From: a virus
Reading direction: 5' to 3' (one strand)
IMG/VR virus record: IMGVR_UViG_3300045988_154156
DNA: 64,000 bases
In this document: positions 22,692 to 26,935 of the stretch, piece by piece
Layout of the letters: each line of letters starts with the position of its first letter
Position numbering within the stretch: the stretch's first letter is position 1
Program-made: the position numbers and the translations under genes
The notes under the pieces: model-generated
What the model saw: only the letters and a program-made list of their open reading frames with translations
Database searches by the model: none
Told to the model about the DNA's origin: nothing

Positions 22692-22731
22692 AAGGGATAG
22701 AACAATTAAGTTCTATCCCTTATTTTTTTAT
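22692..22731. terminator. Bidirectional intrinsic terminator at the convergent strand switch (AAGGGATAGAAC-loop-GTTCTATCCCTT, T-runs on both sides)
   Basis: 12-bp stem with a T-run downstream on both strands. Lies between the last + gene (22687) and the end of the - gene (22720). Confidence 0.75.
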
Positions 22732-23031
22732 CTATTTAAATATTTCATCAGTCTATTGGATTATATCAAATCCATAATCACTAATAATATTAGCAACTAA
22801 TTCCTACTAATCTAAATTTAATTTAATATTATAGCTAAACATAAAAGCATGAGTTATTTCATGACATAAAACATGATATAATTTATCTTCTTCTAATCTT
22901 CTATTTATATATATTGTGCTAGTCTTATCATCACAAGATCCTAATGCTTTTACCCCATTATGTTTAGATAATTTAGAAAAATTGGAGGGTACTAAAAGCA
23001 CCCTCCAATTTCTTCCATTTATATTAAACAT
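22720..23031 (-). CDS. ImmA/IrrE-like HExxH metallopeptidase-domain protein (about 103 aa)
   Basis: HEITHAFMF (HExxH) motif; 5 TAG clustered at the C-terminus; TAA stop inside the terminator stem. Confidence 0.5.
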
Positions 23032-23967: not shown

Positions 23968-24825
23968 TTAAGCAGTATACTAACATCCACATCCAGTATA
24001 ATTAGTTCCCACATAAGGATTTTGGACAACATAGGCTGGAATAGGAGCTTTATTACTTAATTGTTCTACTAAATAAGCATTCTATAAATTTTGAGAAATT
24101 TGGCCCTTAAGAGTAGCATTTTCAGCAGTAAGAGTTTCAATCTTATCTTTGACAAGGAAATCAAGGATAGAGCGCATACTAGCATTAGTATTATCAATAA
24201 TATCTCTTACTCCTTCATTAACTGCTTGACGGTTTTGGCAAGCTTGACTTGCTAAATTATAATTTAAATCAGCAAAGCTTGATGTAATAAGATTTCTATT
24301 CTCGCAGCAGCACTGAGCATTCGTTGCTGCCATATTATTTAATTGCTGAATGATATTATTAGTATTCTACATACCAGCGACAGTATCAGCATTAATAGCC
24401 TAAGTAATGCCGAAGGTATTTTGCATATTGTTAATGCCCATATTACAAATATCTTGTGATAAAGAACGAGCATTGCTATTAATAGTCTCAGTAACATTAC
24501 CAAAACCAGAAAGTAAATTATTATTTACATTAGCGAAACCATTACATAAGCCAGTCTGTAAAGAATTAATTCCAGATTTAAGATCGCTTATATCAAATCC
24601 ATAAGTTAATTCTTCTCTCGTAGTAGTGCCTTGATAACCAGTATTACCATTATTACCCCAGCCGTTATTACCCCAGCCATTAAAGCAGAATAAGAATAGG
24701 ATAATAATCCACCAAGCGCCGTCGCCCCACATACCATTATCGCCATTGCGATAACCGTTACCAGAAGCAGCAGCAATATCAGATAAAGAATATTGCTGAG
24801 TTGGAAAACCACCATAATTAAACAT
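23968..24825 (-). CDS. Membrane protein with a Gly/Asn/Trp-rich region and Cys cluster (QCCCENRNL…GCGC), about 285 aa
   Basis: ORFs 24400-24843 and 24082-24333 are in the same frame joined by TAG. TM helix WWIIILFLFCF. RBS AAAGGGG before MFNYGG. Confidence 0.5.
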
Positions 24826-25117: not shown

Positions 25118-25573
25118 TTAAAAGTTAAACTGCGGTTTGCTATCAGTTATTTGCTCTGTCGAAGATTGAGTATTCTATTGTTGTTGTGGATTAATATTAG
25201 CCTAGGCCTATTGTGTTAATTGAGAAAAGGCTTCTTTAATCTATGATAAAGCATTATTAAATTCATTCCGTGTTATAAAATCTACATTATTACCTTGTGA
25301 ATTGCTTGGAAGTTCTTTTAGCTCATACATATTGATTGAAGCAGTTCCATCCATATTAATCTATTTTGTATATATTCTTCTATTGGCATAGTCAGGAAAA
25401 TAGAATACTGAACCATCAAAATCTACACTCATCGCCCGTACTTCATCTAATGAAGAGACTGGTCTAACTCTTGGAGTAGTATTTTGATTTGATGCCGGCA
25501 TAATAGGTTGAGTGTTATAAATTGGCCGATTTATAGCACTAAACTATTGTGGATAACCATAATTATTATTCAT
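25118..25573 (-). CDS. Hypothetical protein (151 aa, about 6 TAG), first gene of a leftward operon
   Basis: RBS GGAGGTAAAAATT then ATG; continuous frame to TAA. Confidence 0.45.
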
Positions 25574-25726
25574 AATTTTTACCTCCGGAGTTTTAAAGTA
25601 GAAGAATTTTATCTTTTTCTTCCATAGATATATAAAATTTAGATTATAAATATCATTAGGAAATACTCACACTTTTTTAAATGGAAATCTCTTCCGCACC
25701 AAAATAAATAAAAATATCGTCATGAA

Positions 25727-25755
25727 TAGACTTTTATAAAAATTTTTGGTATAAT
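25727..25755 (+). promoter_or_regulatory. Candidate promoter (TAGACT-N17-TGgTATAAT) in the divergent intergenic region upstream of the response-regulator gene
   Basis: Extended -10 TGGTATAAT at 25747-25755; weak -35. Confidence 0.4.
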
Positions 25756-25795
25756 TATAAATAGAGAAAGATAAAAATATTAATGAAAGGAGGAG

Positions 25796-26500
25796 ATTAT
25801 CATAGTTTCAATATGTATTTGTGATAGAGATGATTCACATGGATAGTCAATGATTACTATTATTAAAGATTATTTGTTTAAACATAATGTAATGGGAAGT
25901 ATAAATTATTTTAATAATGCTAAAGATTTATTAAGACAACCAATCTATGACGTCTATTTCTTAGATATTTTAATTAGAGATATGAATGGCATTGAGCTTG
26001 GAAAAATATTAAAACAAAAAAATGAAAAATGCGAAATAATTTATATAACTGATTAGCGTAATTATGGACCACAAACCTATGAAGTAAAGGCATTTAATTA
26101 TTTATTAAAACCTATAAATATAGAAGAAATAAATGATACTTTAGATAGATTATTTGAAAAAATTAAAAGTGAATATAGATATTTAAGAACTAAAGATGGG
26201 GAAGAAAGAATTCCACTTAAAGAATTATTATATGCTGATATTATAGGAAGAAATTTAACTTGTCATTTCTATGATGGTGAATTAATTCAAAGTACAACTT
26301 TAAAAAAATCTTTTGAAAAAATGATAGGTCCTTTAAAAGATAATCCAGATTTTGTCTTTGTTGCACCGAGTTTATTAATTAATTTAAATTATATTAGTTC
26401 AATGAACTTAAACTATTTAACTTTTACTACTGGTGAAGTATTATATTTCCCAAAGAGCGCGTATAAATTAATTTGTGAAAGATGGAAGCAATATAGTTAA
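25796..26500 (+). CDS. AgrA/ComE-like response regulator with C-terminal LytTR DNA-binding domain; the conserved N-terminus is encoded upstream of the first ATG (25850)
   Basis: Receiver-like MITIIKDYL…YFLDILIRDMNGIELGKIL aligns with AgrA. LytTR signature IPLKELLYADIIGRNLTCHF…FVFVAPSLLINLNYI. Upstream in-frame ICICDRDDSHG(TAG)SM matches the AgrA N-terminus IFICEDDPKQRENM, directly after RBS AAAGGAGGAG, with no AUG. Confidence 0.65.
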
Positions 26501-26502
26501 AT

Positions 26503-26541
26503 AGAAATAAGGGGAACACTCGATAATTGAGTGTTCCCCAT
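26503..26541. terminator. Bidirectional intrinsic terminator (GGGGAACACTC-loop-GAGTGTTCCCC followed by ATTTTTTT)
   Basis: 11-bp stem with a T-run on the + strand and an A/T-rich tract on the - strand, between the convergent RR gene and the holin gene. Confidence 0.7.
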
Positions 26542-26545
26542 TTTT

Positions 26546-26935
26546 TTATGATTTATTAATATTAACACTTGCTTCTATCTTTTCAGAAATATATTTATCT
26601 AAATCACCATAAATATTAGCAAGATAATCTTTTGCTTCTTGGCTAAGAATTGTTAATACTGCTTGCGTAGTTTGTTCAAATGCTTGCTTTTGAGCTTCTG
26701 CATCAAATTTGCCTTGTTTCTTTAGACTTTCTACATAAGTCTAATTCGTAGCAATAACACAACTATTAATTGTGTCAGTTAGCATTTGAATATATTTATT
26801 TGCTAATGCATTATCATTATTCTTTTGAATTTGATTACTTTTTACATTAATCCATTTAATAATAAAAGTAGTCAATACTCCTAATAATGGAATAATACAT
26901 ACTTGAAAAATTTGAGTTAGTAATTCACTAGTCAT
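26546..26935 (-). CDS. Holin, LL-H family-like (about 129 aa)
   Basis: N-terminal TM (IIPLLGVLTTFII) then …ANKYIQMLTDTINSCVIATN(TAG)TYVESLKKQGKFDAEAQKQAF…AKDYLANIYGDLDKYISEKIEA, matching the LL-H holin signature. RBS GGAGGAAATA. Confidence 0.6.

What the first reader, a model, noticed from the sequence alone, without database searches (positions are those of the whole stretch)
25786..25852. The response regulator appears to initiate at a non-AUG codon (ATT/ATC/ATA) directly after a perfect SD
The first ATG (25850) would give a receiver lacking beta-1 and the acidic pocket. The in-frame upstream sequence K-E-E-I-I-I-V-S-I-C-I-C-D-R-D-D-S-H-G-(TAG=Q)-S-M matches the AgrA N-terminus IFICEDDPKQRENM. 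This upstream stretch is bounded by a TGA at 25784 and contains no ATG, GTG or TTG. The only candidate starts are ATT, ATC or ATA at 25796-25804, which lie 0-6 nt after AAAGGAGGAG. An AUU/AUA start in the infC style would be a regulatory feature in its own right.
Basis: seen in the sequence. Interest (0 to 1): 0.5.

Follow-up and report, generated by a model that had tools for sequence, protein, structure and literature searches.

The report
Phage regulator gene starting at AUA
A regulator gene in a gut phage that reads TAG as glutamine has no normal start codon and most likely begins at a weak ATA codon placed at the usual distance behind a very strong ribosome-binding site, a rare but already known way of keeping a regulator scarce, and one that public gene calls have missed.

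Summary
The LytTR-type response-regulator frame is closed by TAA and TGA at 25781-25786. It holds no ATG, GTG or TTG before 25850. GAAAGGAGG (25785-25793) sits just before ATT, ATC and ATA (25796-25804).

The 16 codons before ATG 25850 are translated. They supply positions 1 onward of the Pfam receiver profile. Across relatives they change mostly synonymously or conservatively. The 25850 ATG itself is missing in a 77%-identical orthologue.

Across the phage family the N-terminus (consensus M-L-S-I-A-I-Y) aligns with window I-V-S-I-C-I-C. The first codon is ATG, GTG or TTG in distant members, ATT in two sister clades and ATA in nine independent assemblies of the window clade. The ribosome-binding site always lies 6-9 nt upstream.

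ATA 25802 has a spacing of 8, the window's median. ATT 25796 has a spacing of 2, so ATA is the favoured start. The CDS is then 25802-26500 (232 codons, with TAG read as Gln at 25844 and 26054).

Sequencing error, a +1 frameshift from ATG 25783, and a truncated product are all disfavoured.

This is a new member of a known kind: the Firmicute AUA/AUU starts with strong ribosome-binding sites, as in infC, ccpN and cvfC1. Initiation itself has not been shown experimentally.

The parts
25727..25755 (+). Sigma-70-type promoter of the regulator gene: TAGACT, 17 nt, TATAAT, with a TG extension (TGgTATAAT).
   Evidence: Consensus scan, 10 of 12 matches with TG. The block AAAAATTTTTGGTATAATTATAA is conserved in all relatives.
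25781..25786 (+). Two in-frame stop codons (TAA, TGA) that close the regulator frame upstream.
   Evidence: Sequence. Orthologues L010, L021 and L002 also have a stop here.
25785..25797 (+). Shine-Dalgarno sequence GAAAGGAGG (25785-25793), with a possible extended pairing GAU (25795-25797) that overlaps the ATT codon.
   Evidence: An 8-nt match to the anti-SD complement. It is conserved in the window clade and in L002. AGGTGAT occupies the same register in the 45% clade.
25796..25801 (+). ATT and ATC, the less likely alternative start codons, at aligned spacings 2 and 5.
   Evidence: ATT is conserved but too close to the SD core. ATC is GTC in L002 and GTT in L025.
25802..25804 (+). ATA, the most likely initiation codon.
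   Evidence: Aligned spacing is 8, the median for the window's genes. It aligns with ATT in L002 and the 45% clade, and with ATG, GTG or TTG in distant family members.
25802..26500 (+). Proposed full coding sequence of the LytTR-type response regulator: 232 codons plus TAA. TAG is read as Gln at 25844-25846 and 26054-26056. The phospho-acceptor Asp codon GAT is at 25964-25966.
   Evidence: Pfam Response_reg 1.4e-12 and LytTR 0.002. phrog_8810 at 3.5e-33. Whole-gene dN/dS is 0.09-0.17. The profile matches ComE across both domains.
25850..25852 (+). The internal ATG that public gene calls use as the start (216-aa product).
   Evidence: P0001-P0009 are all called at 216 aa. No SD precedes it. This codon is ATA in L002.
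26511..26539 (.). Bidirectional intrinsic terminator shared with the convergent holin gene.
   Evidence: A 13-bp G+C-rich stem followed by a T run, found on both strands; 0.1 expected by chance.
26546..26935 (-). Holin gene, the conserved convergent neighbour. This is context, not part of the start-codon feature.
   Evidence: phrog_13712 holin at 4.9e-35. A holin homologue lies directly downstream of the regulator in all 31 fetched loci that tblastn matched.

Best explanation
The regulator mRNA is made from its own sigma-70-type promoter. The very strong SD (GAAAGGAGG, with possible extended pairing through GAU) recruits the host 30S subunit. Initiation then occurs with fMet-tRNA on the near-cognate AUA at 25802, eight nucleotides after the GGAGG core. 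The product is a 232-residue protein (M)VSICICDRDDSHGQSM... with a complete receiver domain.

Shown here:
- The segment upstream of ATG 25850 is coding and under purifying selection.
- There is no canonical start.
- The SD and its spacing are conserved.
- The codon aligned with the family's initiator is ATA or ATT in this lineage, and ATG, GTG or TTG elsewhere.

Inferred from known AUA/AUU-initiated genes: the weak start keeps the regulator at a low level (about 10-30% of the AUG level in S. aureus reporters) and makes its synthesis sensitive to IF3 and to the host's physiological state. Also inferred: the two in-frame TAG codons make completion of the protein depend on the phage's TAG-to-Gln suppression.
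For: 1. Sequence: the frame is closed by TAA and TGA, and there is no ATG, GTG or TTG before 25850.

2. Pfam receiver profile position 1 maps to 25811. Profile-to-PDB alignments put profile positions 3-4 at residues 2-6 of Spo0A, SLN1 and other receivers.

3. In L002 (77% aa identity) the 25850 ATG is ATA, and the upstream codons are kept: I-L-S-I-C-V-C-D-R-N-S-S-H-G-Q.

4. Selection: window vs L021 shows 3 synonymous and 0 nonsynonymous changes in the 16 upstream codons. Window vs L002 shows 5 synonymous and 6 nonsynonymous (omega about 0.2). The whole gene has omega 0.09-0.17 at dS up to 0.9-1.0.

5. Start-codon table: ATA in the window, L031, L010, L021 and L025; ATT in L002, L013, L012 and L032; ATG in L006, L033 and L034; GTG in L026; TTG in L027-L030. 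All have a GGAGG-type SD at aligned spacing 6-9.

6. Most family members begin M-L-S-I-A-I-Y, which aligns with window I-V-S-I-C-I-C.

7. The window's genes use SD spacings of 5-11, median 8. ATA sits at 8, ATC at 5 and ATT at 2.

8. In the 45% clade, 21 nt covering the SD, spacer and ATT are invariant in 8 distinct sequences, while 26% of CDS sites vary (P about 0.001).

9. No RNA structure occludes the site (z = 0).

10. Precedent: S. aureus infC (AUA), ccpN (AUA), cvfC1 (AUU) and citZ (AUA) were mapped by ribosome profiling. All have strong extended SDs and give about 10-30% of AUG expression (PMC13009471).
Against: - There is no experimental evidence of initiation (no N-terminal peptide, ribosome profiling or toeprint).
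- The host and its 16S 3' end are unknown. The only hint is a 98%-identical contig binned in a 'Clostridium sp.' MAG.
- ATT 25796 is also conserved and cannot be excluded as a start.
- In the 45% clade an in-frame ATG (TTG in L012) lies five codons upstream, without an SD of its own, and might be the start there.
- Selection counts on 16 codons are small.
- Two relatives (L025, L019) carry frameshifts inside the gene, so the gene may be dispensable in some genomes, or those assemblies may be wrong.
Confidence: 0.72

Rival explanations
1. Initiation is non-canonical, but at ATT 25796 (or ATC 25799) rather than ATA 25802. This would add two (or one) Ile residues to the N-terminus.
For: ATT 25796 is conserved in all window-clade members and in L002. 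ATC sits at aligned spacing 5, the lower end of the range seen in the window.
Against: ATT lies 2 nt after the GGAGG core, outside the 5-11 range used by every confident gene in the window. In the 45% clade the corresponding ATT overlaps the SD itself (AGGTGAT-T). ATC is GTC in L002 and GTT in L025. The family's initiator Met aligns with 25802, not 25796.
Confidence: 0.12
2. The protein starts at ATG 25850, as in public gene calls (216 aa). The upstream open stretch is then untranslated leader. The product would be a regulator with a truncated receiver that no longer gates the DNA-binding domain.
For: It is the first canonical start in frame. All database entries of the close clade are called this way.
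Against: No SD precedes 25850. The ATG is ATA in L002, whose first ATG lies 11 codons further down. The upstream 16 codons show coding-type conservation and match the receiver profile from position 1. Homologues have their N-terminus at the 25802 position.
Confidence: 0.05
3. Translation starts at the out-of-frame ATG 25783 and reaches the regulator frame by a +1 shift. Alternatively, the assembly carries a one-base indel in AAAGG that hides an ATG-AAG-GAG-GAG start.
For: ATG 25783 lies one base out of frame. Removing one A would give M-K-E-E-I-I-I-V-S-I-C-I-C-D. The 45% clade has an in-frame ATG-AAG-G at a similar place. ATG is also present in L021-L025.
Against: The same reading frame offset is present in nine independent assemblies. 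The ATG is AAG in L010 and absent in L002. No SD precedes it. There is no slippery site between 25786 and 25822, where the 13-codon frame ends.
Confidence: 0.03
4. The gene lost its start codon and is no longer translated in this lineage. It is a decaying relic.
For: The phospho-acceptor Asp is Gly in most relatives, and the acidic pair is N-S in L002. L025 and L019 carry frameshifts.
Against: The ORF is intact with omega 0.09-0.17 at dS 0.4-1.0 between lineages that all lack a canonical start. The promoter, SD, terminator and synteny with the holin are conserved.
Confidence: 0.05

Closest known systems
ccpN (AUA) and cvfC1 (AUU) of Staphylococcus aureus / Bacillus subtilis (PMC13009471)
   Same: These are genes for transcription regulators in low-G+C Gram-positives. 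They start at AUA or AUU behind a very strong, extended SD at conserved spacing, and the non-canonical codon is conserved among relatives. Expression is reduced to about 10-30% of the AUG level.
   Different: Those starts were mapped by ribosome profiling and tested with reporters; this one is inferred. This gene is phage-borne, belongs to a different protein family, and also carries in-frame TAG sense codons.
infC (IF3), AUU in E. coli and AUA in S. aureus; pcnB, AUU in E. coli
   Same: A near-cognate AUH start codon is used as a built-in throttle that IF3 discriminates against.
   Different: infC is autoregulatory because its product is the discriminator. Nothing suggests such a loop here. 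IF3 sensitivity is assumed, not tested.
AgrA / ComE / LytR family (receiver plus LytTR DNA-binding domain)
   Same: It has the same two-domain architecture. The N-terminus I-x-I-C-D-(x)-D-D, the FLD phospho-acceptor context, IYIT and LLKP are all present in the window copy. The profile matches ComE (4cbv) across both domains.
   Different: The LytTR match is below Pfam's threshold for the single sequence (18.8 vs 22.6 bits). No histidine kinase was identified. Most orthologues have Gly in place of the phospho-acceptor Asp, so the family may act without phosphorylation.
Code-15 (TAG read as Gln) gut phages (bioRxiv 10.1101/2021.08.26.457843; PMC9523058)
   Same: In-frame TAGs occur in most long genes. 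TAG exchanges with CAG and CAA among orthologues. Genomes of relatives are about 200 kb and come from gut metagenomes.
   Different: No suppressor tRNA lies within this 64-kb window. A text search of the first paper found no mention of a response regulator, and its one use of 'start codon' concerns mis-predicted integrase starts.

Membership tests
Genes initiated at a non-canonical AUA/AUU codon behind a strong SD (infC / pcnB / ccpN / cvfC1 type) | There is no canonical start codon at or near the position where homologues begin, and the frame is closed upstream. | tested here: met
   TAA and TGA lie at 25781-25786, and there is no ATG, GTG or TTG until 25850. Homologues begin at the 25802 position.
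Genes initiated at a non-canonical AUA/AUU codon behind a strong SD (infC / pcnB / ccpN / cvfC1 type) | A strong SD lies at functional spacing from the near-cognate codon. | tested here: met
   GAAAGGAGG has aligned spacing 8 to ATA 25802. The window's genes use 5-11, median 8.
Genes initiated at a non-canonical AUA/AUU codon behind a strong SD (infC / pcnB / ccpN / cvfC1 type) | The non-canonical codon and its SD are conserved among orthologues. | tested here: met
   ATA in nine assemblies, and ATT in L002 and in eight 45%-clade sequences. The SD-spacer-ATT block is invariant.
Genes initiated at a non-canonical AUA/AUU codon behind a strong SD (infC / pcnB / ccpN / cvfC1 type) | The sequence downstream of the proposed start evolves as coding sequence. 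| tested here: met
   Omega is about 0-0.2 in the 16 codons before ATG 25850, and 0.09-0.17 for the whole gene. Counts in the short segment are small.
Genes initiated at a non-canonical AUA/AUU codon behind a strong SD (infC / pcnB / ccpN / cvfC1 type) | Initiation at that codon has been demonstrated (N-terminal peptide, initiation-site ribosome profiling or toeprint), along with reduced, IF3-sensitive expression. | not testable with these tools
   This needs an experiment or metaproteomic spectra.
LytTR-family response regulator (AgrA / ComE type) | An N-terminal receiver domain (PF00072). | tested here: met
   E 1.4e-12, 48.2 bits against a cutoff of 30.2, profile positions 1-110.
LytTR-family response regulator (AgrA / ComE type) | A C-terminal LytTR DNA-binding domain (PF04397). 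| tested here: inconclusive
   18.8 bits against a cutoff of 22.6. PF04397 is precomputed on the orthologue P0011 and on homologues P0013-P0019. The family profile aligns with ComE 4cbv to residue 219.
LytTR-family response regulator (AgrA / ComE type) | Phospho-acceptor Asp, acidic pair, and conserved Thr/Ser and Lys. | tested here: met
   The window has CDRDD, FLD (GAT 25964-25966), IYIT and LLKP. However, Asp is Gly in L001, L010, L021-24, L002, the 45% clade and L006.
LytTR-family response regulator (AgrA / ComE type) | A cognate histidine kinase. | not tested
   None was seen among the ten neighbouring genes scanned. The rest of the window was not scanned.
Programmed +1 frameshift (prfB type) | A conserved upstream start in the 0 frame, a slippery codon, and a stimulatory SD 3 nt before it. 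| tested here: not met
   ATG 25783 is AAG in L010 and absent in L002. No re-pairing site exists in 25786-25822.
TAG-to-Gln recoded (code 15) phage | In-frame TAGs in most genes, and TAG exchanging with Gln codons among orthologues. | tested here: met
   ORF coverage doubles with TAG as sense. TAG/CAG at I-I-N-Q-Y and TAG/CAA at W-K-Q-Y.
TAG-to-Gln recoded (code 15) phage | A phage-encoded suppressor tRNA (anticodon CUA). | tested here: not met
   There is no tRNA in the 64-kb window. The genome is about 200 kb, so one may lie elsewhere.

The most novel reading that the evidence does not exclude
The weak AUA/AUU start is one half of a two-key translational gate on a lysis-linked regulator. The mRNA comes from a host-type promoter. 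The protein appears only when initiation at a near-cognate codon is permitted, which depends on IF3, ppGpp and the host's physiological state. It also requires that the phage's TAG-to-Gln suppression is already on, because there are TAGs at codons 15 and 85. The regulator then times expression of the conserved neighbouring holin or late genes. The family-wide series at one codon (ATG, then GTG/TTG, then ATT/ATA) would then record selection for ever lower, state-dependent synthesis.
Probability: 0.15. Interest if true: 0.65.

Novelty: new member of a known kind. Interest (0 to 1): 0.4.

Why it matters
- Annotation: public protein sets truncate this regulator by 16 residues (216 aa) or 29 residues (203 aa). 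This removes the first strand of the receiver fold, so structure or function predictions made from those entries would be wrong.
- Biology: it adds a phage example to the few documented AUA/AUU starts. It also gives an unusually clear comparative series within one family: ATG, GTG, TTG, ATT and ATA at the same codon behind the same ribosome-binding geometry.
- Context: the gene sits next to the holin in every relative examined and carries TAG sense codons. How its synthesis is throttled may therefore bear on how recoded phages time late events.

Tried and rejected
- DNA search of the annotated phage collection with 25400-26700 found nothing.
- IMG/VR scans returned only one near-identical contig.
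PDB sequence and profile alignments were used instead.
- Folding of the 5' region showed no structure beyond shuffled controls (z = -0.01). A riboswitch-like or occluding hairpin explanation was therefore dropped.
- A +1 frameshift or indel from ATG 25783 was considered, because deleting one A restores M-K-E-E-I-I-I. It was rejected because the ATG is not conserved and nine assemblies share the frame.
- Re-initiation at ATG 25850 after termination at TAG 25844 was considered and rejected. L002 lacks that ATG, and a second TAG follows at 26054.
- I suspected that other truncated or extended gene calls in the family (P0070, P0110, P0117, P0089, P0099) hid more AUH starts. They turned out to be GTG or TTG starts at the aligned codon.
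- The conserved upstream element ACTCACACTTTTTTA is not repeated elsewhere in the window.

Full report
**What is in the sequence.** On the + strand the regulator frame reads TAA(25781) TGA(25784) AAG GAG GAG ATT(25796) ATC(25799) ATA(25802) GTT TCA ATA TGT ATT TGT GAT AGA GAT GAT TCA CAT GGA TAG(25844) TCA ATG(25850). It continues to TAA at 26498-26500, with a second in-frame TAG at 26054-26056. No ATG, GTG or TTG lies in frame between the upstream stops and 25850. GAAAGGAGG occupies 25785-25793.

The window is an A+T-rich (28.9% G+C) phage segment in which TAG is a sense codon. Treating TAG as sense raises the summed length of ORFs of 100 or more codons from 34.6 to 67.0 kb. Almost every long gene carries several in-frame TAGs. 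No tRNA gene lies in the window.

**The stretch before ATG 25850 is part of the protein.** The Pfam receiver domain matches from profile position 1 at the Ile codon 25811 (E 1.4e-12). The LytTR domain matches weakly (E 0.002). A family profile aligns its positions 3-4 with residues 2-6 of solved receivers such as Spo0A and SLN1, and aligns with ComE across both domains. A product starting at 25850 would lack strand 1 and the acidic loop.

Relatives confirm this:
- L002 (77% amino-acid identity) keeps I-L-S-I-C-V-C-D-R-N-S-S-H-G-Q. It has ATA where the window has ATG 25850, and its first ATG lies 11 codons further down.
- Nei-Gojobori counts with TAG as Gln give omega 0.09-0.17 for the whole gene at dS 0.37-1.0.
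- For the 16 codons before 25850, the counts are 3 synonymous and 0 nonsynonymous changes (window vs L021), and 5 synonymous and 6 nonsynonymous (window vs L002).
- TAG exchanges with CAG and CAA at aligned positions, which supports TAG as Gln.

**It is not an error or a frameshift.** The same SD, ATT, (ATC or GTT) and ATA arrangement occurs in eight further independent assemblies: L001, L010, L021-L025 and L031. All close database entries are called at 216 aa from the internal ATG, so none offers an upstream canonical start.

An out-of-frame ATG at 25783 could give M-K-E-E-I-I-I if one A were removed. However, that ATG is AAG in L010 and absent in L002. It has no SD, and no slippery site follows it.

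**Which codon starts the protein.** A profile search found a large family (360 hits). Most members begin M-L-S-I-A-I-Y, which aligns residue for residue with window I-V-S-I-C-I-C. I fetched DNA for representatives. The codon at that position is as follows:

| Start codon | Loci |
|---|---|
| ATG | L006, L033, L034 |
| GTG | L026 |
| TTG | L027-L030 |
| ATT | L002; the 45-55% clade (L011-L016, L019, L032) |
| ATA | the window clade |

In every case a GGAGG-type SD lies at aligned spacing 6-9.

Within the window, about 27 confident genes use spacings of 5-11 (median 8) with canonical starts. The regulator is the only real gene without one. ATA 25802 sits at spacing 8, ATC at 5 and ATT 25796 at 2. 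ATC is not conserved: it is GTC in L002 and GTT in L025. ATT 25796 can be read as the GAU extension of the SD pairing. That reading assumes a standard Firmicute 16S 3' end, which is an inference.

In the 45% clade, 21 nt covering AGGTGAT, the spacer TAAA and ATT-TTT are invariant in eight distinct sequences, while 26% of coding sites vary (P about 0.001). This argues that the block is a ribosome-binding site rather than ordinary codons, even though an SD-less in-frame ATG (TTG in L012) lies five codons upstream in that clade.

I therefore place the start at ATA 25802 and the CDS at 25802-26500.

**Surroundings.**
- A promoter, TAGACT-17-TGgTATAAT (25727-25755), and a strong bidirectional terminator (26511-26539) flank the gene.
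- The 5' region has no structure beyond shuffled controls.
- The gene is a lone + strand gene between - strand blocks.
- Its convergent neighbour (26546-26935) is a holin (phrog_13712, 4.9e-35). A holin homologue occupies the same place in all 31 fetched loci that tblastn matched, even where the regulators are only 33-37% identical.

**How it most likely works.** Two things are shown: the N-terminal segment is translated, and the only conserved initiation signal is a strong SD followed at optimal distance by AUA or AUU. It is inferred that fMet-tRNA initiates on AUA at reduced efficiency.

In S. aureus, ribosome profiling mapped AUA or AUU starts at infC, ccpN, cvfC1 and citZ. All sit behind strong extended SDs, and reporters gave about 10% of AUG expression, up to 30% for ccpN in rich medium (PMC13009471). 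In-vitro work shows that non-AUG starts are especially sensitive to nutrient limitation and ppGpp (PMC5499595 abstract). A weak start on a transcription regulator fits this pattern.

The TAG codons at positions 15 and 85 add a second requirement, active suppression. That is consistent with the idea that recoding delays late functions (bioRxiv 10.1101/2021.08.26.457843). This link is speculative.

**Comparison and novelty.** This works like the ccpN / cvfC1 / infC class. It meets every sequence-level criterion for that class, and only the experimental criterion is untested.

The protein is a receiver-plus-LytTR regulator. The window copy keeps the acidic residues, the phospho-acceptor Asp (GAT 25964-25966), and the Thr and Lys. 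Most orthologues have Gly at the phospho-acceptor position, so phosphorylation may not be essential in the family.

Phage LytTR regulators are known, for example in Clostridioides, Staphylococcus and Listeria phages at about 25% identity. My literature searches turned up no report of a non-AUG start in one, or in a recoded phage. This is therefore a new member of a known kind. It has practical consequences for annotation and moderate biological interest.

**Limits.**
- The host is unknown. The only hint is a 98%-identical contig binned with a Clostridium MAG.
- The choice between ATA 25802 and ATT 25796 rests on geometry and homology.
- Selection statistics on 16 codons are thin.
- Only 17 family members could be inspected at the DNA level, because look-ups are capped.

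Noticed in passing
window 26546-26935 (- strand) with 25802-26500 (+ strand); loci L001-L034: The regulator and a holin gene (phrog_13712) are convergent neighbours sharing one terminator. tblastn matched a holin homologue downstream of the regulator in 31 fetched loci, down to 33-37% regulator identity. This suggests a conserved LytTR-regulator/holin module in these recoded phages.
   Followed up: partly
window 25964-25966 (GAT, Asp55): The phospho-acceptor Asp is Gly (GGT) in L001, L010, L021-24, L002, the 45% clade and L006. It is Asp only in the window, L031, P0001 and P0007. Many more distant family members again have Asp. The receiver may act as a pseudo-receiver in most of the near relatives, and the window's Asp may be a reversion.
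   Followed up: partly
window 25663-25681: A 19-nt element, TACTCACACTTTTTTAAAT, lies in the divergent intergenic region upstream of the regulator promoter. It is conserved in the window clade, L002 and L006, and approximately in the 45% clade. It occurs only once in the window. It could be an operator or part of the promoter of the - strand operon that starts at 25573.
   Followed up: partly
L025 (near the FL(G) codons) and L019 (about codon 128): Two relatives carry frameshifts inside the regulator gene. These are either assembly errors in homopolymer runs or real inactivation.
   Followed up: no
window 25783-25824: A 13-codon out-of-frame ORF (M-K-G-G-D-Y-H-S-F-N-M-Y-L) starts at ATG 25783 and overlaps the SD and the start region. 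Its ATG is present in most of the window clade but is AAG in L010 and absent in L002, so it is probably not functional.
   Followed up: yes
window 22720-23031 (- strand): A small protein with an HExxH-type motif gives weak matches to the IrrE/M78 and DUF6782 metallopeptidase families (Pfam 2.4e-06 and 1.1e-04; phrog_1233 at 2e-16). It lies in the operon divergent from the regulator.
   Followed up: no
window 23968-24825 (- strand): A 285-aa protein has a Trp/Gly-rich membrane-like segment (GAWWIIILFLFCFNGWGNNGWGNNG) and Cys clusters. It matches phrog_16490 (unknown function) and has no Pfam match.
   Followed up: no
L032 (CAMELE010000001.1, 163.9 kb) and L031 (JALFMW010000253.1): Contigs carrying this phage module are binned in MAGs labelled 'uncultured Mollicutes' and 'Clostridium sp.'. 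The 164-kb contig is probably a phage genome binned as bacterial, so these host labels should be treated with caution.
   Followed up: no
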